Shown in pieces: positions 6,087-55,663 of a DNA stretch of 57,978 nt. The translations under genes and the position numbers were made by a program. Position 1 is the stretch's first letter, and each line of letters begins with the position of its first letter. The notes beneath the pieces were generated by a model that was not told the origin of the DNA, searched no databases, and saw only the letters and a program-made list of their open reading frames with translations. Source of the DNA: Candidatus Woesearchaeota archaeon (GTDB lineage Archaea > Nanobdellota > Nanobdellia > Woesearchaeales > ARS49); the NCBI GenBank assembly GCA_014729555.1, contig WJJT01000021.1:1-57978 (forward strand), given 5' to 3'.

Positions 6087-6518
6087 TTACTCAAGGTATG
6101 TCAGGACTCCTGCCTGTTCCTTGTGGTCAAGCCCTGTTGAGCTTTGGTATTCAAAATCTAGTTCTGTCTTTAGTTTTTCTCCTTTAGATCCGTATTTGCA
6201 GTCAGAAAGAACAAATGTTTCTTGTTCGCTGTTTTTTAGCTCTTTGCCTTCTTCGAGCGAGCATTTTCCTTCTGGGTCGCTTATTTTTTGTATGAACACG
6301 TCTTGTCCAAGATTGTTTTCTATCACTAATGTTAGTTCATCGTTTGTTGCCTGCACGTCCTGGCAGTCAAGCCCTGGCACTATTTCGCATTGCTCCTGCC
6401 CGAATGTCTCTGGGCTCAGGAATCCAAAATACAGAAGTGCCCCTATTGCTATTATGAATACAAGAATTACCCAGCCGTATGTTAGCAGAAATTCTATTGC
6501 TGCTTGCCCTTTTTCCAT
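6087..6518 (-). CDS. archaeal type IV pilin-like protein (class III signal peptide, DUF361-like)
   Basis: N-terminus MEKGQ/AAIEFLLTYGWVILVFIIAIGALLYFGF matches the KGQ-xxxEF prepilin peptidase site plus hydrophobic helix of archaeal pilins. Four Cys in the globular part. Confidence 0.7.
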   Translation of the reverse strand: MEKGQAAIEFLLTYGWVILVFIIAIGALLYFGFLSPETFGQEQCEIVPGLDCQDVQATNDELTLVIENNLGQDVFIQKISDPEGKCSLEEGKELKNSEQETFVLSDCKYGSKGEKLKTELDFEYQSSTGLDHKEQAGVLTYLE

Positions 6519-16817: not shown

Positions 16818-18056
16818 ATGAAGAAGAGTAAAAAGCACACCAAAAATAAAGAAGAGTATTATAAGTTGGACAAGAAAACAATGGGCTATGCCTTGCTTGG
16901 CTTGATTGTTGTGTTGATAATTGCAGGGCTTTTCTATTATGATGTCATAGAATTGCCTGAATCAAAAGAGGGAAAAAAAGAAAAGAAAATTCTGGATAAT
17001 TTCACAGTTCCTGTTGGTGCTCCTGAAGTAGAGCTTTATGTGATTGAGAACTCTGACTGCAGGGAATGCATTAATGCCTCTCAGGTTATTGAGATTATAA
17101 AGGGTGCTCCCACTCTTGATGTAACGTCTGATAAGATTATTGAGTATGACTCTGACGAGGGCAAAGACCTTATTGAGGAGTATGAGCTCAAGAGGCTGCC
17201 TGCTTTTGTTCTGAAGATTACTTCAGAAGAGAAGCTTGAAGAGGCTGTCCCTCCTTTTGAAAAAAGGAATGGTGATATGGTTTATGATATGACTCCCCCG
17301 CCTTATTACGATGTTAAGGAGGGCGAGATAAAAGGCGTCATATCTGTCATTAAGCTTGTGAATCCTGGCTGTGAGGACTGCTTTGATCTTGATGCACTGA
17401 TGAAAAACCTTAAGATGTTTGGCCTGGCGATTAGTGAGGAAAAGACTGTTGAATATGATAGTGAGGAGGGAGAGGATCTTGTTGAAAAGTATGAGATAAC
17501 AAAGGTTCCTACTTTGATATTTTCCAGTGATGCTGCAGAGTATGATCAGATCAGCGGCGCCTGGGCTGATATTGGCTCTACAGAGGATGACGGCAGGATG
17601 GTGTTGAGGACAGTTAACCCGCCTTACTATGATCTTGAGACAAGTTCTGTTAAGGGTGTTGTTTCAATCACTCACCTGACTGATGAAAGCTGTGACAAAT
17701 GCTTTGATACAAGCATGATCAAGGACATGTTTGAGAATCAGCTTATGATGCAGTATGGAATTGAAAAGACTGTTGATGTGTCCAGTGAAGAGGGCAAGGA
17801 TATTCTTGAGAAGTATGGCATAACAAAGGTTCCTACAGTTGTCCTGTCAAGTGATGCAGGTGAATATCCTGGGGTCGCAAATGTATGGGACCAGATAGGC
17901 GTTGTTATGGATGGTGAGCATGTCATTACAAAGCTTGAGACTATTCCTGGCGTTGTTTACAAGAATCTGGAAACAGGCGAGATAATCGGCCTTGAGGAAG
18001 AGAATTCAGGAGAGGATTCTGAAGAAGAAACCAGTGATGGCAATGAGACTGCCTGA
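16818..18056 (+). CDS. signal-anchored protein with three tandem thioredoxin-fold CxxC domains
   Basis: TM anchor MGYALLGLIVVLIIAGLFYY. Three repeats of about 100 aa each have a CxxC (CREC, CEDC, CDKC) and a conserved E(K/E)YxI(T/K)(K/R)(V/L)P(T/A) strand (EEYELKRLPAFVL, EKYEITKVPTLIF, EKYGITKVPTVVL). GGGGGAT SD lies upstream of the ATG at 16818. Confidence 0.75.
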   Translation: MKKSKKHTKNKEEYYKLDKKTMGYALLGLIVVLIIAGLFYYDVIELPESKEGKKEKKILDNFTVPVGAPEVELYVIENSDCRECINASQVIEIIKGAPTLDVTSDKIIEYDSDEGKDLIEEYELKRLPAFVLKITSEEKLEEAVPPFEKRNGDMVYDMTPPPYYDVKEGEIKGVISVIKLVNPGCEDCFDLDALMKNLKMFGLAISEEKTVEYDSEEGEDLVEKYEITKVPTLIFSSDAAEYDQISGAWADIGSTEDDGRMVLRTVNPPYYDLETSSVKGVVSITHLTDESCDKCFDTSMIKDMFENQLMMQYGIEKTVDVSSEEGKDILEKYGITKVPTVVLSSDAGEYPGVANVWDQIGVVMDGEHVITKLETIPGVVYKNLETGEIIGLEEENSGEDSEEETSDGNETA

Positions 18057-18123
18057 TTTTTTTATCTTTTTTCCTTATTATTTCCATAAGTTTTAAAAGC
18101 TGGTCGAGTTTCTGAAATCTATA

Positions 18124-19068
18124 ATGATATGCATAATTGCTTTGGCGGTATTCAGTATTCTGGCAGTATTTTCTGCTAGCTACCGCCCTCTTGCAGCCGA
18201 GGCTTTTGACTGTGTTTTCAGAAAGGCTACTTTCAGGAAGTGCAGGACTAATCTTGACCAGAGATTAAAGAGCCAGATCACCGGAAAATTGCTTACCAAA
18301 AGCCCGGGGCTTGCAAGATTTGTTTACAAGCGATTTGAGATTCTGTCCTGGATTTTTGTTATTTTGTTCATAGCCAGCCTGGCTTACACTGTTTATGGTG
18401 GCTATAATTATGCATTGTATGGCAATTGTTATGGTCCTGAGGATAATGGTGGTTTTTGTATATACAATGCCCTGGAAGGAGAGCAGTTCTCTAAGATTCA
18501 TGCAGAGCTTGAGGGAGAGACTGTTCTGCCGACTGCAGATGATGACCCTGCTATGGGTCCTGATGACGCCAAGGTTGAGATGATTGAGTTTGGTTGTTAT
18601 ATGTGTCCTTTTAGCAGGGAGGCGCAGGAGGTTGTAAAGCAGGTTCTTGAAAAGTATGGTGACAGGATTAAGTTTGTTTACAGGGATTTTCCTATTGAGC
18701 AGAGCGGCCACTCTGATTTGCACATGGCTTCTAATTGTGCGAATGAGCAGGGAAAGTTTTGGGAGATTCATGATTTATTGTTTACAGAGCAGGAGGTTTG
18801 TGCCCAGACAACTGGAGAGGAAAGAGAAAAGCAGGTTCAGGATATTGCAGAGCAGGCCGGCCTGGATATGGCTGAGTTCAATGCATGTATGAAATCTGAG
18901 AAATATGAAGATGAAATTGATAAAGATTTTCAGGATGGCTTGAAAGCAGGCGTGTATGGCACTCCAACATTCTTTATCAATGGAAGGACTATCATTGGAC
19001 CGAAACCTTTAAGAGCTTTTGAAAAAATCATTGATGAAGAGCTGGAGAAAGCTGAAAATGGGTCTTAA
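18124..19068 (+). CDS. membrane-anchored DsbA-like thiol:disulfide oxidoreductase with novel two-TM Cys-pair N-domain
   Basis: C-terminal DsbA-type domain (EFGCYMCPFSREA, FWEIHDLLF, VYGTPTFFINGR). The N-terminal part has two TM helices, C30-x9-C40 in the basic loop and C102-x9-C112 after TM2. Confidence 0.75.
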   Translation: MICIIALAVFSILAVFSASYRPLAAEAFDCVFRKATFRKCRTNLDQRLKSQITGKLLTKSPGLARFVYKRFEILSWIFVILFIASLAYTVYGGYNYALYGNCYGPEDNGGFCIYNALEGEQFSKIHAELEGETVLPTADDDPAMGPDDAKVEMIEFGCYMCPFSREAQEVVKQVLEKYGDRIKFVYRDFPIEQSGHSDLHMASNCANEQGKFWEIHDLLFTEQEVCAQTTGEEREKQVQDIAEQAGLDMAEFNACMKSEKYEDEIDKDFQDGLKAGVYGTPTFFINGRTIIGPKPLRAFEKIIDEELEKAENGS

Positions 19069-20254
19069 TGTTGAGGGTATAAGAAAGGATTTCCCGATTC
19101 TGCAAAGGAAATTAGCTGGCAAGCCTGTTGTTTATTTTGATAATGCATGCCAGAGCCTGCGTCCTGTGCAGGTTATTGAGAAAATCAATGAATACTACAA
19201 GGATTTTCCTGCCTGCGGTGAGAGAAGCATGCATAAGCTGGGCAAGAAGGTTGATGAGGGTGTTGACAAGGCAAGAAAATCCCTTCAGGCTTTTTTTAAT
19301 GCAAAAAGAACAGAGGAAATTATTTTTACAAAGAATGCTACAGAGGCTATTAATATTGTTGCTCATGCTCTTGATTTAAGTAAAGGGGATGTTGTTTTGA
19401 CAACTGATAAAGAGCATAATTCTAATTTGATTCCCTGGCAGCTGCTTAAGGAAAAAGGTGTTAAACACGAGGTTGTTGAGTTCAACAACTTGGATGCCTT
19501 GAATGACAAGTTGACAAAAAATGTTAAGATTGTTTCCATGGTGCATACCTCTAATATGGACGGCACTAGTATTGATGCTAAAGAGATGATTAAGGCTGTG
19601 CATGACAATGGCAGTTTATTCATGCTTGATGCCTGCCAGTCTGCTCCTCATAAAACTGTTGATGTGAGAAAGCTTGATGTTGATTTCATGGCTTGTTCTG
19701 GCCACAAGATGCTTGGCCCCAGCGGTATTGGCTTGTTATATGGAAAGCAGGATGCTTTGTCAAAATTAAAGCCGTTTGTTGTTGGAGGCAGTACTGTTTC
19801 AGAGTCTACTTACTCCTCCTGTGACCTGGAAAAGCCCCCTCATTTGTTTGAGGCCGGCCTGCAGAATTATGCTGGAATAATGGGGTTTGGTGCTGCTGCA
19901 GATTACCTCAAGAAAACAGGATTAGATAATGTTTCTGCGCACGAGCTTAGGTTGAACAGGAAAATCACTGATGCTGTCGGTGATTCTGTTGAATTGCTTG
20001 GCCCAAAGAATCCAGAGTTAAGGGGAAGTATTTTTAGTTTTAATGTTCCTGGCCTGGAGACTCATAATGTTGCAGTTATGCTTGATGAGGCTGCTAATGT
20101 GATGGTCAGGAGCGGTGCTCACTGCTGTCATTCCTGGTTTAACGCGCATAAGATGCTGGGTTCTGTTAGGGCTTCTCTTTATTTATACAATACAGAAGAG
20201 GAATGTGATGTTTTTATTAAAGAATTGCAGAAAATAGTGAAATTACTTTCCTAG
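19058..20254 (+). CDS. sufS: cysteine desulfurase (SufS/class V aminotransferase)
   Basis: PLP-lysine motif CSGHKMLGPSGIGLLYG and active-site RSGAHCCH. Start set at MGLNVEGIRKDFPIL, overlapping the dsbA-like stop by 11 nt. Confidence 0.9.
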   Translation: MGLNVEGIRKDFPILQRKLAGKPVVYFDNACQSLRPVQVIEKINEYYKDFPACGERSMHKLGKKVDEGVDKARKSLQAFFNAKRTEEIIFTKNATEAINIVAHALDLSKGDVVLTTDKEHNSNLIPWQLLKEKGVKHEVVEFNNLDALNDKLTKNVKIVSMVHTSNMDGTSIDAKEMIKAVHDNGSLFMLDACQSAPHKTVDVRKLDVDFMACSGHKMLGPSGIGLLYGKQDALSKLKPFVVGGSTVSESTYSSCDLEKPPHLFEAGLQNYAGIMGFGAAADYLKKTGLDNVSAHELRLNRKITDAVGDSVELLGPKNPELRGSIFSFNVPGLETHNVAVMLDEAANVMVRSGAHCCHSWFNAHKMLGSVRASLYLYNTEEECDVFIKELQKIVKLLS

Positions 20255-20404
20255 CCTGTCTACTTCTTTGACTATGTCATTTGCTTCTTGCATGGGCTGT
20301 TCTTCTAAAGCAGCCTTGCCGCAATACGGGCAAAGTGTTGGCTGGAAATTCCTTGAAAATTTCCAATTACACGCTGCACATCTGTACTTTTTCTTTGTAG
20401 CCAT
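20243..20404 (-). CDS. small zinc-ribbon protein (53 aa), below the ORF-track size cutoff
   Basis: My own translation of the minus strand gives MATKKKYRCAACNWKFSRNFQPTLCPYCGKAALEEQPMQEANDIVKEVDRLGK. It has a CxxC-x12-CxxC pattern. GGGGGAT SD lies 4 nt upstream of the ATG. The 3' end overlaps the sufS stop region convergently. Confidence 0.6.
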   Translation of the reverse strand: MATKKKYRCAACNWKFSRNFQPTLCPYCGKAALEEQPMQEANDIVKEVDRLGK

Positions 20405-20499
20405 TATTATCCCCCGCATAGTCTGTTATTAAAGAAATATTTAAATGTTGTGTTTCTTATGGAAAAATTATTAAATCAGAATGTTTATTTTAGTTAAAA

Positions 20500-20727
20500 A
20501 TGAGGTCAGCAACTATATTTGCATTGTTTTTGTTGGCTGCAATCCTTGTAGCAGGCTTGTATGCCAATAGCATCAAGACTTATGCTGTGCGTTCTGTTAA
20601 TGATGACTGTGCTGACGGCCTTTGCTATGGCTGTGTTCTTGATGGTGTTCCCTGCACCTGCTACAGCCAGGAGTGTGTCTGCGGAGAAAAGATTGTTCCT
20701 TTAGACACCTGTGTTACTGCAGGATAA
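20500..20727 (+). CDS. small secreted Cys-rich peptide
   Basis: Signal peptide MRSATIFALFLLAAILVAGLYA followed by about 50 residues. Eight Cys lie in the last 42 residues. Confidence 0.6.
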   Translation: MRSATIFALFLLAAILVAGLYANSIKTYAVRSVNDDCADGLCYGCVLDGVPCTCYSQECVCGEKIVPLDTCVTAG

Positions 20728-27183: not shown

Positions 27184-27891
27184 CTAACTGAACCAGCTTG
27201 ATATCCATGCCCAGATTTTTGAAAAAAAGCCTTTTGGTGCTTTTTCTTGTTTTTTCTTTTCTGTTATTTCCACGGTTATTTTTTCCTGTTCTGGCTCTTC
27301 GTTTTTCACCACGACTGGTTCTGGCTCTGCTTCTTTTTCAGTCGGAGTGTCTATCTCTACATCTGTTGTTTCATTAGTGTCTGTACCAGCTGTATCGCCT
27401 GAGTCTGTTTTTGTGCCTTCTTTGGTTATCTTGATTTCGCATTTGCAGTATTCATTGCACAGGCCTATGTTTCCTTCGTCATCAAAGCAGATTTTGTTCA
27501 TTGGGTCGCATTCTTCCCCTTCATCCACGATTGAATCTCCGCAGAATGCTGCTGGTTTTGGTGCTGTGTAGTTTTGGTCTTTTGCTTTTGCTTCTCCTTC
27601 ACCGCCTACGCACTTTCCCATTTCGCATTTTTCAAAGCCCTCTCTTGTGCACTCTATTATTTCTGATTTAATCTGGTCATCATGGTCACAATAGTATTCT
27701 TTAAGGTGTGCGCTTGTGTCCTGTCTTACCTCTGCGCTTGGGCTTAGTATACAGATATCTTCTTTTCCGCTGATTATCTTGGTCTCTCCTTTTTCTGCAT
27801 AGTTTTTTCCGCCGTCTGTGTCTGTGCAATCTGCTGCAGCAGTGCCTGCAAATAACACAAACAACACCAAGAACAGTATGGCCCTTTTCAT
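27184..27891 (-). CDS. secreted modular Cys-rich protein
   Basis: Signal peptide MKRAILFLVLFVLFAGTAAA. A CTDTDGGKNY...EYYC...EC...C module. CGDSIVDEGEECD resembles the CGNG-x-E-x-GEECD Cys-rich repeat. An acidic T/E/P linker follows. Hydrophobic tail GFFSKIWAWISSWFS. Start set at the ATG at 27891. Confidence 0.65.
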   Translation of the reverse strand: MKRAILFLVLFVLFAGTAAADCTDTDGGKNYAEKGETKIISGKEDICILSPSAEVRQDTSAHLKEYYCDHDDQIKSEIIECTREGFEKCEMGKCVGGEGEAKAKDQNYTAPKPAAFCGDSIVDEGEECDPMNKICFDDEGNIGLCNEYCKCEIKITKEGTKTDSGDTAGTDTNETTDVEIDTPTEKEAEPEPVVVKNEEPEQEKITVEITEKKKQEKAPKGFFSKIWAWISSWFS

Positions 27892-40907: not shown

Positions 40908-41261
40908 TCAATTACGATAAATACAGCGAACAGTCAGGTCATTAAAATTCATTAGCATAACTCTTTTTTCAACATGTTGTATGTTGTCAATATCAAATCC
41001 ATACTCGCCTGCTCCTGCAATTTGCGGGTTATCCTTGTTTTCCTGAAGAAATGAAATACACTCTTGGACATCTAAAGGATTATTGTTGCAGGTTAGGCAA
41101 TCAATTTGAATCCTGTTTGCACGCAGCTCCCCACTCTCCAATTTGTCTTTAATAGAATCTCCAACAGATTCTCCGAGAATTATTAAAGCTAACAGGCCCC
41201 CACACAACACAATCAAGATTATTAGTATTACCAAAATAATAGTCAGTAAGGATTTTTTCAT
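40908..41261 (-). CDS. signal-anchored hypothetical protein
   Basis: TM helix LLTIILVILIILIVLCGGLLALIIL, then DCLTCNNNPLDVQEC. Confidence 0.55.
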   Translation of the reverse strand: MKKSLLTIILVILIILIVLCGGLLALIILGESVGDSIKDKLESGELRANRIQIDCLTCNNNPLDVQECISFLQENKDNPQIAGAGEYGFDIDNIQHVEKRVMLMNFNDLTVRCIYRN

Positions 41262-53767: not shown

Positions 53768-54154
53768 CTATATGATATCTTTAATATGTGCTGTTGATAT
53801 TGGGCAGCACTTTTGGCCTATGTAGTATCTTGGGTATTTTACTTCTATGCATCCTGGTTTGAATTCACTCATTCTTGCTAATGCATACCCTTTTGGGCAT
53901 GGCTCATACCCTAGTACATCGCTGTACGGCTGCCTTCCTTTTCTTTCTATTTTTGTTGATATTACGCCTTCTGGTGTGATGCCTGCTCCATAAAACCTGT
54001 CTACTGGCGCGTTTTGTGCTTTTTCAGCATCCACATACACTTTTTCAACTGAGTGGATTATTGATCCTGTGTTTTTCATCTGGAATAATAAAAGAAGTCC
54101 GATTATTGCGATAATTGCCACAATGCCTAGCATCACTAATGAAAAAGATTTCAT
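53768..54154 (-). CDS. signal-anchored small Cys protein, paralog 4 of array
   Basis: MKSFSLVMLGIVAIIAIIGLLLLFQMKNTGS... with C-terminal CPKGY...PGC...QKCCPIS. Confidence 0.65.
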   Translation of the reverse strand: MKSFSLVMLGIVAIIAIIGLLLLFQMKNTGSIIHSVEKVYVDAEKAQNAPVDRFYGAGITPEGVISTKIERKGRQPYSDVLGYEPCPKGYALARMSEFKPGCIEVKYPRYYIGQKCCPISTAHIKDII

Positions 54155-54188
54155 TCATTTCACCAAATTAGATAAAAAAAATAAAATT

Positions 54189-54584
54189 TTACTGCGGGAT
54201 TATCTGGCAGGCAGTATCTCCAATCCAGTAGTCTATTTGTTCTGGCCTGCTGGCTTGCCTGTTTGGATAGCAGGGTGAAGTGAATACGCTTGTTGACCTT
54301 GTTATTGTTGGCTTTACCTGCATTACTGCTGAGCCCGTGTCATAATATCCTGCGTAATATACTGGCTGTTCATATGTTTCTGGCACGCCTGTTACCCAGC
54401 TTCCGTATACTTCCTGCCATCTGTCTGTCTTTGCTCCTGAGTAGGATTTAGACACTCCATATGCAGTAGAGGATATGCTGTAGGCTCCGCTCATTGCTCC
54501 TTTGAACAGCAAGATCAATCCCACTATTGCAATCACTGCAACAATTCCTAATATTACCAGTGAAAGATGCCTCTTTTGATCCAT
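54189..54584 (-). CDS. signal-anchored small Cys protein, paralog 3 of array
   Basis: MDQKRHLSLVILGIVAVIAIVGLILLFKGAMSGA... The anchor is nearly identical to paralog 4. Y/G/S-rich middle region and two C-terminal Cys. Confidence 0.65.
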   Translation of the reverse strand: MDQKRHLSLVILGIVAVIAIVGLILLFKGAMSGAYSISSTAYGVSKSYSGAKTDRWQEVYGSWVTGVPETYEQPVYYAGYYDTGSAVMQVKPTITRSTSVFTSPCYPNRQASRPEQIDYWIGDTACQIIPQ

Positions 54585-54644
54585 TTTTTTTATTCACCTC
54601 TTGATTTATTATTTATTTTTATTTGATTACATAAATGTTTGTTC

Positions 54645-55262
54645 TTAGTATGTTGCCCGTAGTCCTGATTTAAAACAGCACCACGTGTCATCTGCGCCCC
54701 ATATTAAATCTCTGTTTTGTATTGCTGATCTCACCATTACTGTTAATGTCTGTCCAGCGGCAGTTTGGATTTGCTGTCCTGATTGATAGCATTCCAGGGT
54801 TCTAAGGCTGTGTTTAAGTTGTTCTGTTCCTGCAGCATACTGCATGCCTAACTGGCCGCTTCTTACAGGCTGATTGTAAACATAACAACCGCGTTCATTT
54901 TCATTAAGCCGCTTCCAAGACCTTTTTTTGTCCTGATAAGACGTTGTTCCTGCTATTCCTAGGTTGCCTGTTGCTTGACCTTCTCGCGTATATGCTTGGC
55001 CCCCTTCAACTTGTGCTCCGGTCTCTTCAATTATATTTGCCTGTGTCTCGCCTTGCTGGACTATGCCCCCGTAAATAGCTCTTCCGCCTGAAGCTGCTTT
55101 CCAGTATTTTCCTGGATCTCCTCCTGGTGTTTCTGCTGCTTCTCTTGTTTGTTTATATATTGAAACAGCTCCTGTATTTGCATCTGTCATCATCATCACA
55201 AATCCTACCATGCCTACTACAAACACGACTGTTAAGACAATGAATGGTGTTTTTTCACTCAT
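54645..55262 (-). CDS. signal-anchored small Cys protein, paralog 2 of array (longer, G/Q/T-rich)
   Basis: MSEKTPFIVLTVVFVVGMVGFVMMMTDANTGAV... with C-terminal GCYVYN, LECYQSG and WCCFKSG. Confidence 0.65.
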   Translation of the reverse strand: MSEKTPFIVLTVVFVVGMVGFVMMMTDANTGAVSIYKQTREAAETPGGDPGKYWKAASGGRAIYGGIVQQGETQANIIEETGAQVEGGQAYTREGQATGNLGIAGTTSYQDKKRSWKRLNENERGCYVYNQPVRSGQLGMQYAAGTEQLKHSLRTLECYQSGQQIQTAAGQTLTVMVRSAIQNRDLIWGADDTWCCFKSGLRATY

Positions 55263-55273
55263 CTTTTTTCACC

Positions 55274-55663
55274 TCATATACCTACACAGCAATACTTGTC
55301 TGTGTATACATCTTCTACACTGAAATATGGATAGCATTTGTTTAAGTCATTTATTTCATCCATGCTTATGTACGTTGGAACATCTGTTAAGTCATATAGC
55401 TCTCCCTGAATTGATAACACAAAGCAGGATTTTCTTGGTTTTACTCCTGCTATTGCAGAGCCCCATGCTCCAAAGACACCTTTTTCTTTTTTTGCTGCCT
55501 CTATTGCTTCTGGTGTTGCTATAGCCCTGCCGTACATAGGAGATTTTGCAACCATCCCTGTTGTTCCAGTATTGTATAGCATAACCATTCCGACTACTGC
55601 CAGAACAGATACTATTGCTAGAAGTGTCATAGGAAAATTTTTCTCAAAGTCCATTATTTTCAC
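55274..55663 (-). CDS. signal-anchored small Cys protein, paralog 1 of array
   Basis: ...PMTLLAIVSVLAVVGMVMLYNTGTTGMVA... with C-terminal SCF..., NKCYPYF and KYCCVGI. Confidence 0.65.
   Translation of the reverse strand: MKIMDFEKNFPMTLLAIVSVLAVVGMVMLYNTGTTGMVAKSPMYGRAIATPEAIEAAKKEKGVFGAWGSAIAGVKPRKSCFVLSIQGELYDLTDVPTYISMDEINDLNKCYPYFSVEDVYTDKYCCVGI

What the first reader, a model, noticed from the sequence alone, without database searches (positions are those of the whole stretch)
16818..19068. Two-gene extracytoplasmic thiol-disulfide module: triple CxxC thioredoxin-fold protein plus membrane-fused DsbA
Gene 1 is a signal-anchored protein made of three thioredoxin-fold repeats of about 100 aa. 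Each repeat has its own CxxC (CREC, CEDC, CDKC) and a conserved E(K/E)YxI(T/K)(K/R)(V/L)P(T/A) strand. The second and third repeats are each preceded by PPYYD linkers. Gene 2 is a DsbA-type domain (CYMC) tethered to a two-TM module. The pair is followed by sufS, which overlaps gene 2 by 11 nt. The window also encodes unusually many secreted or anchored Cys-rich proteins: 1-1365, 6087-6518, 20500-20727, 27184-27891, 40908-41261 and 53768-55663. This suggests a lifestyle dependent on extracellular disulfides. No DsbB or VKOR homologue is visible here, so how the system is re-oxidised is an open question.
Basis: partly seen in the sequence, partly recalled or inferred. Interest (0 to 1): 0.7.

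Follow-up and report, generated by a model that had tools for sequence, protein, structure and literature searches.

The report
Cysteine-desulfurase-linked disulfide system in DPANN archaea
The exported thioredoxin-like genes are real, but the conserved unit is the DsbA gene's cysteine-studded membrane domain paired with the next gene, a cysteine desulfurase, which may let these quinone-poor archaea make protein disulfides using sulfur taken from cysteine.

Summary
Gene 1 (16818-18056) is an N-anchored protein with three thioredoxin-like repeats, each carrying one CxxC. Gene 2 (18124-19068) is a two-helix membrane domain fused to a DsbA domain. A SufS-like gene overlaps gene 2 by 11 nt.

The interpretation needs re-centring. 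Gene 1 is a lineage-specific neighbour. The "tether" of gene 2 is an uncharacterised module with five invariant cysteines and no Pfam, NCBIfam or PDB match. It is better conserved than the DsbA domain.

The module occurs in 311 protein clusters, either fused to DsbA or standalone. In 100 loci holding the module, taken from DPANN genome bins and from metagenomes, a group-II desulfurase is directly adjacent in 60 and within about 3 kb in 11 more. Another 20 loci are cut by contig ends. Only 4 of 61 DsbA-only control loci have one within 10 kb, none adjacent.

Some loci also carry a separate IscS/IscU pair. Twelve carry a thioredoxin-like protein homologous to the partner domain of bacterial VKOR, seven of them directly after the module.

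Best reading (inferred, about 0.4): the desulfurase supplies sulfane sulfur, which the module uses to oxidise DsbA or Trx partners, replacing DsbB/VKOR plus quinone. How anything crosses the membrane is unexplained.

The parts
16818..18056 (+). Gene 1: membrane-anchored protein (N-terminus inside, body outside) with three thioredoxin-like repeats (CREC, CEDC, CDKC). It resembles archaeal protein disulfide oxidoreductases (PDO). Probably an accessory exported oxidoreductase or isomerase.
   Evidence: Closest solved relatives are PDO/glutaredoxin-like proteins 2ywm, 2hls, 1j08 and 1a8l. 109 of 111 full-length homologues have exactly three CxxC, mostly Cx[DE]C.
18057..18123 (+). Intergenic region. 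A T7...T6 run lies right after the gene 1 stop (terminator-like for archaea) and a TTTTAAAA TATA-like box lies about 35 nt before the gene 2 ATG. This suggests gene 1 is a separate transcription unit.
   Evidence: Read directly from the sequence. The functional reading is inference only.
18124..18501 (+). Five-cysteine membrane module (gene 2, residues 1-126). TM1 carries C3 at its outer end. A basic cytoplasmic helical region carries C30-x9-C40. TM2 is followed by an outer segment with C102-x9-C112. The family is uncharacterised.
   Evidence: C3, C30, C40 and C102 are invariant and C112 is present in at least 90% of 88 fused homologues. All five are invariant in 25 standalone homologues. 311 clusters, with the module always at the N-terminus. 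No Pfam, NCBIfam, PDB or Foldseek match. AF2 full-length model has pLDDT 91.
18538..19068 (+). DsbA-type domain (gene 2, residues 139-314). Active site C158-Y-M-C161, a T280-P281 loop, and a second conserved Cys pair C205/C255.
   Evidence: PF13462 E 5.9e-29 and PF01323 E 2.8e-21. Foldseek matches to BdbD 3eu3 (TM 0.82 normalised to target), Wolbachia alpha-DsbA and C. diphtheriae DsbA. Invariant residues.
19058..20254 (+). SufS-like group-II cysteine desulfurase whose start overlaps the end of gene 2 (likely translationally coupled). It belongs to a distinct subfamily with active-site motif RSG[QA]HC[VL]HSW; here the motif is RSGAHCCHSW.
   Evidence: Aminotran_5 E 6.8e-107. TIGR01979 scores 405 bits, below its 475 cut-off. 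Closest structures are 1t3i and 5xt5. Motif census. Adjacent to the module in 60 of 100 loci.

Best explanation
Gene 2 and the sufS-like gene form a unit that is conserved in the DPANN archaeal genomes sampled here. Gene 1 is an accessory exported oxidoreductase.

Shown here:
- The N-terminal 126 residues of gene 2 are a distinct module with two transmembrane helices and five cysteines.
- Its predicted topology puts three Cys (C3, C102, C112) at the outer face and a Cx9C pair (C30, C40) on a basic cytoplasmic region.
- The module is either fused to DsbA or standalone.
- It is nearly always encoded next to a dedicated group-II cysteine desulfurase.
- In some loci it is followed by a thioredoxin-like protein of the VKOR-partner type, or sits beside a separate anchored DsbA.

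Inferred:
1. The desulfurase converts cysteine to alanine and forms a persulfide on its catalytic Cys.
2. This sulfane sulfur passes to the cytoplasmic Cys pair of the module.
3. Resolving it releases H2S and leaves a disulfide, or a relayed S0.
4. The oxidising equivalent reaches the outer Cys trio and then the CxxC of DsbA. DsbA then oxidises exported Cys-rich proteins, with the triple-Trx gene 1 product acting as co-oxidase or isomerase.

The module plus desulfurase would thus stand in for DsbB or VKOR plus quinone, with cysteine as the terminal electron acceptor. The step across the membrane is the weakest part. No conserved polar path or cofactor site is evident.
For: - Synteny. Of 100 module-bearing loci, sufS is directly adjacent on the same strand in 60 and within about 3 kb in 11 more. 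Twenty are cut by contig ends and about 8 have room but no sufS. Gaps are mostly -4 to +13 nt.
- No other gene family is linked in more than 12 loci.
- Control. Of 61 loci with related DsbA but no module, 4 have a sufS within 10 kb and none adjacent.
- The link follows the module, not DsbA. Standalone modules keep sufS immediately upstream, and most of those loci show no DsbA nearby, though many contigs are short.
- Fused and split forms both exist. L022 reads DsbA - sufS - module, and L039 reads DsbA - module.
- The module is more conserved than DsbA: majority-residue frequency 0.78 for TM1 and 0.70 for the cytoplasmic loop, against 0.61.
- Loci L101, L122, L128, L134 and L153 also carry a second, more distant (IscS/NifS-like, by my reading of the sequence) desulfurase. 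In four of them it sits beside an IscU-like gene. The module-linked enzyme is therefore probably not the Fe-S housekeeping one.
- The linked enzyme forms a distinct motif subfamily.
- A small family is directly downstream of the module in seven loci and within about 4.5 kb in five more. It is homologous to TM5 plus the Trx domain of Synechococcus VKOR (3kp9, residues 164-277, E 3.6e-22).
- Topology is supported by charge bias. It also fits the N-terminal anchors of the split DsbA and Trx partners, and standalone modules that have a third helix followed by KRKK.
- Chemical precedent. A natural desulfurase-rhodanese protein oxidises the roGFP2 dithiol with cysteine through a persulfide relay, releasing H2S (PMC12319549). 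Polysulfide S0 oxidises E. coli DsbA in vitro and rescues a dsbB mutant anaerobically (PMC11921322).
Against: - There is no biochemical or genetic evidence for this system.
- Two helices with no conserved charged or polar path, apart from S85 in mid-membrane, give no obvious route for thiol-disulfide exchange or sulfur transfer across about 30 Å.
The module modelled alone is only moderately confident (pLDDT 72).
- Most standalone-module loci show no DsbA or Trx partner nearby. The core function may therefore not be DsbA oxidation.
- About 8 loci with room lack sufS.
- Whole genomes were not searched. DsbB, VKOR, quinone synthesis or SufE/SufU could exist elsewhere.
- Neighbourhoods also hold metal-homeostasis genes (a Cu P-type ATPase in 11 loci, plus ArsR-like and ArsP-like genes). 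These point to possible alternative roles.
Confidence: 0.4

Rival explanations
1. Sulfur export or handling rather than disulfide formation. The module is a membrane-bound sulfur acceptor for the desulfurase, a functional stand-in for SufE or SufU. It passes sulfane sulfur outward by Cys-to-Cys ligand exchange, much as MerT passes Hg(II). The sulfur would be used at the cell surface, for example for metal-sulfide detoxification or for loading the Cys-rich tails. DsbA would then act as a sulfurtransferase or an accessory.
For: The link is between module and sufS even without DsbA. Many standalone modules carry extracellular tails of about 10 Cys. A Cu P-type ATPase recurs nearby in 11 loci, along with ArsR-like and ArsP-like genes. 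No SufE, SufU, rhodanese or TusA-like gene turned up in the recurrent neighbour families I read (judged by eye and a few Pfam hits, not by a dedicated search).
Against: The fused domain has all the sequence hallmarks of an oxidase-type DsbA. The VKOR-type Trx partner points to disulfide chemistry. No extracytoplasmic consumer of sulfur is identified.
Confidence: 0.2
2. Ordinary membrane-tethered DsbA. The N-terminal domain is only an anchor, perhaps with structural disulfides. DsbA is re-oxidised by environmental oxidants or by a partner encoded elsewhere. sufS is the housekeeping Fe-S desulfurase that happens to share an operon.
For: Some organisms are reported to run DsbA without DsbB (for example Staphylococcus aureus; my own knowledge). 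This window has no second desulfurase. Whole genomes were not searched.
Against: The module is more conserved than DsbA and has five invariant Cys, two of them cytoplasmic. Standalone modules keep sufS adjacency without DsbA. DsbA-only relatives lack sufS adjacency. Separate IscS/IscU-like pairs are present in several loci.
Confidence: 0.12
3. Sensor or regulator. The outer Cys trio reads the extracytoplasmic thiol-disulfide or metal state through DsbA or Trx. The cytoplasmic Cx9C region, possibly binding a metal or an Fe-S cluster as a dimer, controls or is matured by the desulfurase. This would tune cysteine use and H2S output.
For: Cys residues lie on both faces with no evident conduit between them. 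Small proteins with two helices and a winged-helix domain, and ArsR-like regulators, recur nearby.
Against: There is no known signalling domain. Tight start-stop coupling with an enzyme suggests a stoichiometric complex, not regulation. Two Cys per chain is a minimal metal site.
Confidence: 0.1
4. Reductive or isomerase pathway. The module carries reducing equivalents outward, like CcdA or DsbD, to keep the DsbA-like and triple-Trx proteins reduced for disulfide isomerisation or for protection against copper.
For: Some related loci have CcdA-like and TlpA-like genes nearby (L142, L164). Copper ATPases also recur.
Against: The conserved cytoplasmic partner generates an oxidant (a persulfide), not a reductant. 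No thioredoxin or reductase is consistently linked. The module lacks the 6-8 helix architecture with Cys buried in the membrane.
Confidence: 0.08

Closest known systems
DsbA-DsbB (E. coli) and BdbD-BdbC (Bacillus subtilis)
   Same: An outward-facing DsbA-fold oxidase with a CxxC site and a Thr-Pro loop is paired with a membrane protein that carries Cys residues at the outer face. BdbD is among the best structural matches.
   Different: The membrane partner here has 2 helices rather than 4. It has one outer Cys pair plus a lone Cys, and also a cytoplasmic Cys pair. There is no sequence or fold similarity to DsbB. Its conserved genomic partner is a cysteine desulfurase, and nothing links it to quinones.
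Bacterial VKOR fused to a thioredoxin-like domain (Synechococcus, PDB 3kp9/4nv5)
   Same: Fused and split arrangements of a membrane oxidant with its Trx/DsbA partner. Related DPANN loci encode a protein homologous to VKOR's TM5 plus Trx domain, directly after the module in seven loci (E 3.6e-22).
   Different: No VKOR domain is present. The module has no CxxC inside a helix and no four-helix bundle.
DsbD/CcdA
   Same: Moves thiol-disulfide redox equivalents between cytoplasmic and outer Cys pairs without a quinone.
   Different: DsbD/CcdA has 6-8 helices with Cys buried in the membrane, and thioredoxin is the cytoplasmic donor. The flow is reductive. No homology was detected.
Natural cysteine desulfurase-rhodanese fusion (Pseudorhodoferax CD-Rhd; PMC12319549)
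   Same: A desulfurase persulfide is relayed through a Cys and ends as an intramolecular disulfide in an acceptor, with H2S released. This is the chemistry proposed here.
   Different: That system is soluble and cytoplasmic, and its acceptor (roGFP2) is artificial. It has no membrane step and no DsbA.
Archaeal protein disulfide oxidoreductases (PDO; P. furiosus 1a8l, A. pernix 2hls, Aquifex 2ywm)
   Same: Gene 1 repeats 2-3 align across both thioredoxin units of PDO, and repeat 1 aligns to the first unit. Each unit has its own CxxC.
   Different: PDOs are cytoplasmic, two-unit proteins of thermophiles. Gene 1 has three units, is anchored with its body outside, and uses Cx[DE]C motifs. Its TIGR02187 score is 40 against a cut-off of 185.
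MerT mercury transporter (analogy recalled from memory, not tested)
   Same: A small membrane protein with a Cys pair at the outer or first-helix position and another on the cytoplasmic face. It hands a thiophilic atom between a CxxC protein outside and an enzyme inside.
   Different: No homology was detected. MerT has three helices, its cargo is Hg(II), and transport is inward.

Membership tests
DsbA family (gene 2, residues 139-314) | Thioredoxin fold with an inserted helical domain | tested here: met
   PF13462 E 5.9e-29 and PF01323 E 2.8e-21. AF2 pLDDT 91. Foldseek to 3eu3, 6eez and 4pwo with E about 1e-8 to 1e-9.
DsbA family (gene 2, residues 139-314) | CxxC active site and a Thr/Val-Pro loop opposite it | tested here: met
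   C158, C161, T280 and P281 are invariant in 88 homologues. The cis conformation of the proline cannot be tested here.
DsbA family (gene 2, residues 139-314) | Extracytoplasmic location | tested here: inconclusive
   Predicted only. The loop has 13 K+R against 3 D+E and the downstream flank is acidic. Split DsbA orthologues have N-terminal anchors with the N-terminus inside. No experiment.
DsbA family (gene 2, residues 139-314) | A DsbB or VKOR partner in the genome | tested here: not met
   None among the multi-helix ORFs of the window that I scanned. The rest of the genome was not available.
DsbB (module, residues 1-126) | Four transmembrane helices, two periplasmic Cys pairs, a quinone site | tested here: not met
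   Two helices, one outer pair plus a lone Cys and one cytoplasmic pair. No Pfam hit. Quinone binding is not testable here.
VKOR (module, residues 1-126) | Four-helix bundle with CxxC in a helix, plus a loop Cys pair | tested here: not met
   No CxxC in the module. No Pfam, PDB or Foldseek match.
CcdA/DsbD (module, residues 1-126) | Six or more helices with two Cys inside the membrane | tested here: not met
   Two helices, and only C3 lies in a helix, at its outer end.
SufS / group-II cysteine desulfurase (19058-20254) | Class-V aminotransferase fold, a PLP-binding Lys (SGHK) and a catalytic Cys in the C-terminal loop | tested here: met
   PF00266 E 6.8e-107. 1t3i E 7.5e-88 and 5xt5 E 2.1e-84. 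The sequence reads ...ACSGHKMLG... and ...RSGAHCCHSW....
SufS / group-II cysteine desulfurase (19058-20254) | Reaches the curated SufS model cut-off | tested here: not met
   TIGR01979 scores 405.3 bits against a cut-off of 475.1. The active-site motif is RSG[QA]HC[VL]HSW in most linked enzymes, instead of the canonical R[TA]GHHCA (that canonical motif is from memory).
SufS / group-II cysteine desulfurase (19058-20254) | Operon with sufBCD and a SufE or SufU acceptor | tested here: not met
   No such neighbours appeared among the gene families that recur in the 100 loci or among the window genes I scanned. Identification was by eye and by a few Pfam scans. Elsewhere in the genome was not testable.
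Thioredoxin superfamily / PDO-like (gene 1) | Thioredoxin fold with CxxC, repeated | tested here: met
   PF13192 31.6 bits (cut-off 24.8), PF00085 31.2 (23.5) and PF13098 30.3 (27) for the whole protein. Repeats z = 11-36. PDO structures at E 3.5e-6. Repeat 1 alone gives no hit.
Thioredoxin superfamily / PDO-like (gene 1) | PDO equivalog: a two-unit cytoplasmic protein | tested here: not met
   TIGR02187 scores 40 against a cut-off of 185. Gene 1 has three units and a predicted outside location.

The most novel reading that the evidence does not exclude
DPANN archaea make extracytoplasmic protein disulfides without oxygen or quinones. A dedicated cysteine desulfurase turns cysteine into alanine plus sulfane sulfur. 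A previously unrecognised five-cysteine, two-helix membrane protein conveys that oxidising equivalent to DsbA or Trx partners outside the cell. This would be a new class of disulfide-generating machinery, with cysteine as the terminal oxidant.
Probability: 0.3. Interest if true: 0.9.

Novelty: new variant of a known kind. Interest (0 to 1): 0.75.

Why it matters
All well-characterised routes that make protein disulfides from scratch end in oxygen or a quinone (DsbB, VKOR, Ero1, Erv). DPANN archaea are generally reported to lack respiratory chains and quinone synthesis (my own knowledge), yet this window encodes many Cys-rich exported proteins.

A conserved, genetically compact candidate is now in hand: a desulfurase plus a five-Cys membrane module plus DsbA. 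That makes the question of how such organisms oxidise DsbA directly testable. Two or three genes could be moved into an E. coli dsbB mutant.

The work also defines an uncharacterised membrane protein family (311 clusters at 50% identity) and a distinct SufS-like subfamily that seems separate from Fe-S housekeeping. Even if the oxidation model is wrong, the near-obligate pairing of a cysteine desulfurase with a membrane protein that has Cys residues on both faces needs an explanation.

Tried and rejected
- Family searches for the module found nothing. This covers Pfam and NCBIfam on the full protein, Pfam on 25 standalone modules, a PDB profile search, Foldseek with the full-length model (DsbA-domain hits only) and Foldseek with a model of the module alone (0 hits).
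- I looked for the same DsbA subfamily fused to VKOR, as a domain-swap argument. The longer matches (L074, L037, L027 and the Myxococcota loci) are plain anchored or tandem DsbA proteins, so this gave no support.
- I looked for gene 1 next to gene 2 in distant lineages. It was not found at E < 1e-5 in the genome loci. It appears in only 3 of the 80 metagenome loci.
- I looked for IscS/IscU in this window and found none. Whether this genome has a second desulfurase is therefore unknown.
- I considered a Zn-binding or structural role for the CxxC pairs of gene 1. Each repeat has only two Cys, and 96 of 111 full-length homologues have exactly six in total, so a four-Cys Zn site within one repeat is impossible. 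This reading is unlikely but not excluded.
- I considered the reverse topology, with DsbA inside. I rejected it on charge bias and on the anchors of the split partners.
- A first metagenome search with a broad alignment failed because it had no conserved stretch. It worked with a narrower alignment.
- Literature searches found no paper linking DsbA and SufS in DPANN.
- I could not obtain model coordinates, so Cys-Cys distances and the way DsbA packs on the module were not examined.
Full report
**1. What is in the sequence**

The ORFs are as described.

Gene 1 (16818-18056, 412 aa):
- It starts with a lysine-rich tail and one hydrophobic helix.
- It then has three repeats of about 100 aa, each with a single CxxC (CREC81, CEDC185, CDKC292).
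- PPYYD linkers precede repeats 2 and 3, and each repeat has a conserved ...EKY.ITKVPT... strand.
- The repeats align far better than shuffled controls, with z = 11 to 36.
- The whole protein passes the Pfam cut-offs for Thioredoxin_3, Thioredoxin and Thioredoxin_2.
- Its closest solved relatives are the two-unit protein disulfide oxidoreductases of thermophiles: 2ywm, 2hls, 1j08 and 1a8l.
- Among 111 full-length homologues, 109 have exactly three CxxC, mostly Cx[DE]C, and 96 have exactly six Cys. Of 112 homologues of at least 340 aa, 103 have an N-terminal helix.

Gene 2 (18124-19068, 314 aa):
- Two hydrophobic helices are followed by a DsbA domain (PF13462, E 5.9e-29) with CYMC158.

The next gene starts at 19058, 11 nt before the gene 2 stop. 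It is a group-II cysteine desulfurase (PF00266 E 6.8e-107; nearest structures 1t3i and 5xt5).

The window looks like a fermentative DPANN archaeon. It encodes a thermosome, an archaeal GluRS and ADP-forming acetyl-CoA synthetase parts. The closest homologues of all three genes are labelled Woesearchaeota.

**2. The "tether" is a conserved module**

- Gene 2 homologues are full-length across Woese-, Nano-, Aenigmat-, Micr- and Diapherotrites/Iainarchaeota.
- In 88 sequences, C3, C30, C40 and C102 are invariant. C112 is present in at least 90%.
- The first helix and the loop between the helices are more conserved than the DsbA domain. Majority-residue frequencies are 0.78 and 0.70, against 0.61.
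- The loop has 13 K+R against 3 D+E, and the segments after helix 2 are acidic. The predicted topology is therefore N-terminus out, loop in, DsbA out.
- This places C30-x9-C40 in the cytoplasm, and C3, C102 and C112 at the outer face.
- An AlphaFold2 model is confident (pLDDT 91, pTM 0.82). It shows TM1 (2-16), three cytoplasmic helices (18-35, 44-59, 61-69), TM2 (71-99) and then the DsbA fold.
- Foldseek matches only the DsbA part, to BdbD, Wolbachia alpha-DsbA and C. diphtheriae DsbA.
- The module has no match in Pfam, NCBIfam, PDB sequences or PDB folds.
- An exhaustive HMMER search with residues 1-126 found 311 clusters. The module is always at the N-terminus. Lengths are bimodal, about 300 aa (fused to DsbA) and about 130-170 aa (standalone).
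- Standalone forms keep all five Cys. They often add a Cys-rich tail or a third helix followed by KRKK, which fits the topology.

**3. The conserved partner is the desulfurase, not gene 1**

I fetched 80 loci from genome bins using the gene 2 family, of which 19 hold the module. I fetched 80 more from metagenomes using standalone modules.

Results for 100 module-bearing loci, including the window:

| sufS-like gene relative to the module | Loci |
|---|---|
| Directly adjacent, same strand | 60 |
| Within about 3 kb | 11 |
| Locus cut by a contig end | 20 |
| Room available but no sufS | about 8 |
| Module ORF not resolved by the script | 1 |

- Intergenic gaps are mostly -4 to +13 nt.
- Fused genes usually have sufS downstream, and standalone modules have it upstream.
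- No other gene family is linked in more than 12 loci.
- In 61 control loci with related DsbA genes but no module, mostly bacterial, only 4 have a sufS within 10 kb, and none is adjacent.
- Gene 1 is absent from the module loci of distant lineages.
- Its homologues elsewhere sit next to plain anchored DsbA genes (L165, L166) or a CcdA-like gene (L164). L164 has the same downstream genes as this window but lacks gene 2 and sufS.
- In the window, an oligo-T run follows gene 1 and a TATA-like box precedes gene 2.
- The unit is therefore gene 2 plus sufS. Gene 1 is a recurrent but lineage-specific companion. Other lineages place different multi-domain exported thiol oxidoreductases there, for example a GILT/DsbA/Trx protein in L001 and L005.

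**4. Clues to function**

(a) Five loci also carry a second, more distant desulfurase that I read as IscS/NifS-like. In four of them it is next to an IscU-like scaffold gene, which would be the usual Fe-S housekeeping pair. These identifications are by eye from the sequences. The module-linked enzyme has its own active-site motif, RSG[QA]HC[VL]HSW. It also falls below the curated SufS cut-off.

(b) A small family was found in twelve loci, directly after the module in seven of them. Each member has a helix and a WC.HC thioredoxin domain. It is homologous to TM5 plus the Trx domain of Synechococcus VKOR, the natural redox partner of VKOR (3kp9, E 3.6e-22).

(c) Split arrangements exist, such as DsbA - sufS - module in L022 and DsbA - module in L039.

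The module thus occupies the genomic and architectural place that DsbB or VKOR hold elsewhere. Its constant cytoplasmic neighbour, however, is an enzyme that makes a persulfide.

**5. Proposed mechanism and how far it is supported**

- Established chemistry: sulfane sulfur on a Cys is attacked by a second thiol, giving a disulfide and H2S.
- A natural desulfurase-rhodanese protein does this to roGFP2 with cysteine as the only oxidant (PMC12319549).
- Polysulfide S0 oxidises E. coli DsbA in vitro and rescues a dsbB mutant anaerobically (PMC11921322).
- From formation energies I recall, the couple cysteine / alanine + H2S lies near -0.1 V. This is a rough figure from my own knowledge. If right, cysteine is thermodynamically able to accept electrons from protein dithiols.

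The inference is that the desulfurase loads S0 on C30/C40. The module then delivers the oxidising equivalent to C3/C102/C112, and from there to DsbA or Trx partners. Those partners oxidise exported Cys-rich proteins, with the gene 1 product as co-oxidase or isomerase.

Not shown: any interaction, any activity, or the route across the membrane. There is no conserved polar path in the helices, apart from S85. I could not read model coordinates. An oligomer, a lipophilic sulfur species crossing on its own, or a MerT-like ligand-exchange relay are all possible.

**6. Rivals**

- Sulfur export or metal handling. Cu ATPase, ArsR-like and ArsP-like neighbours, the Cys-rich tails, and the many standalone modules without a nearby DsbA favour this.
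- A plain tether plus a housekeeping sufS. The controls and the conservation pattern disfavour this.
- A redox or metal sensor that controls the desulfurase.
- A reductive, CcdA-like path. This is disfavoured because the cytoplasmic partner makes an oxidant.

**7. Novelty and verdict**

- The DsbA domain, the triple-Trx protein and the desulfurase are new members of known families.
- The five-Cys module is an undescribed family. I found no paper describing its near-obligate pairing with a desulfurase.
- I rate the whole as a new variant of a known kind (a DsbA system with a new kind of membrane partner). I give a 0.3 chance that it is a categorically new, cysteine-driven disulfide generator.

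Limits of this analysis:
- Whole genomes were not searched.
- Many metagenome contigs are short.
- The locus sets were chosen by similarity, so counts describe the sampled loci, not all DPANN.
- Several neighbour identifications (IscS/IscU, Cu ATPase, CysRS, cysteine synthase, CcdA-like) rest on my reading of the sequences or on precomputed Pfam labels.

Noticed in passing
window 20500-20727 (+): A 75-aa ORF with a signal-like N-terminus and 8 Cys (10.5%), about 250 nt downstream of the desulfurase gene. It is a plausible substrate of the disulfide system. No informative Pfam hit.
   Followed up: partly
window 20243-20419 (-): A 58-aa zinc-ribbon-like ORF (CxxC...CxxC) that converges on the desulfurase gene and overlaps its 3' end by 12 nt. 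Only weak Pfam zinc-ribbon hits.
   Followed up: partly
L162 9676-10071; also L101, L115, L128 and others (12 loci): A small protein with one helix and a WC.HC thioredoxin domain, homologous to TM5 plus the Trx domain of Synechococcus VKOR (3kp9, E 3.6e-22). It is encoded directly after the standalone five-Cys module in seven loci, with no VKOR domain in sight.
   Followed up: yes
L022 11721-12200; P0260, P0267, P0280, P0339, P0353: Many standalone modules end in a conserved extracellular tail of about 10 Cys (CGSEHC...GC.C...C...C.GNC.C....CG). Others end in a third helix. The function of the tail is unknown.
   Followed up: no
L005 10952-11425; L002 8815-9252; 12 loci in all: A small protein with two helices (Cys residues between them) and a C-terminal winged-helix domain (DUF7343/MarR-like) recurs near the module. 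It may be a membrane-bound redox or metal-responsive regulator.
   Followed up: partly
L101, L122, L128, L134, L153 (3-6 kb from the module): A second, more distant desulfurase that I read as IscS/NifS-like, next to an IscU-like gene in four of the five loci and often followed by a heavy-metal P-type ATPase. L101 also has what look like CysRS and two cysteine synthase genes upstream. Identified by eye, not by a family search.
   Followed up: partly
L001 8277-9983; L005 11569-13425: Anchored proteins of 570-620 aa with two GILT/DsbA-like domains flanking a thioredoxin-like domain similar to the gene 1 repeats. They sit beside gene 2 homologues in other lineages and look like a different solution for the accessory oxidoreductase.
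   Followed up: partly
L040 7445-9436; L046 9095-11131 (Myxococcota): Single proteins made of three tandem DsbA domains, each with CPFC, and one N-terminal anchor. They turned up among the DsbA-only control loci.
   Followed up: no
L161 4629-5651: A reverse-transcriptase gene (RVT_1) and several small ORFs lie between the fused module-DsbA gene and the desulfurase gene in a 1.1-Mb contig. This looks like an insertion that split the usual pair.
   Followed up: no
window 6087-6518 (-) and 53768-55663 (-): 6087-6518 begins MEKGQAAIEF..., which looks like an archaeal type IV pilin signal, so it is not simply a Cys-rich secreted protein. 53768-55663 is four tandem small N-anchored ORFs with 2-4 Cys each, possibly paralogous surface or pilin-like proteins.
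   Followed up: no
window 16818-18056 and homologues P0121-P0240: The CxxC motifs of the triple-Trx family are mostly Cx[DE]C (CEDC, CKEC, CTEC, CEEC and others). This dipeptide is unlike thioredoxin, DsbA, PDI or glutaredoxin, so the redox properties cannot be guessed by analogy.
   Followed up: partly
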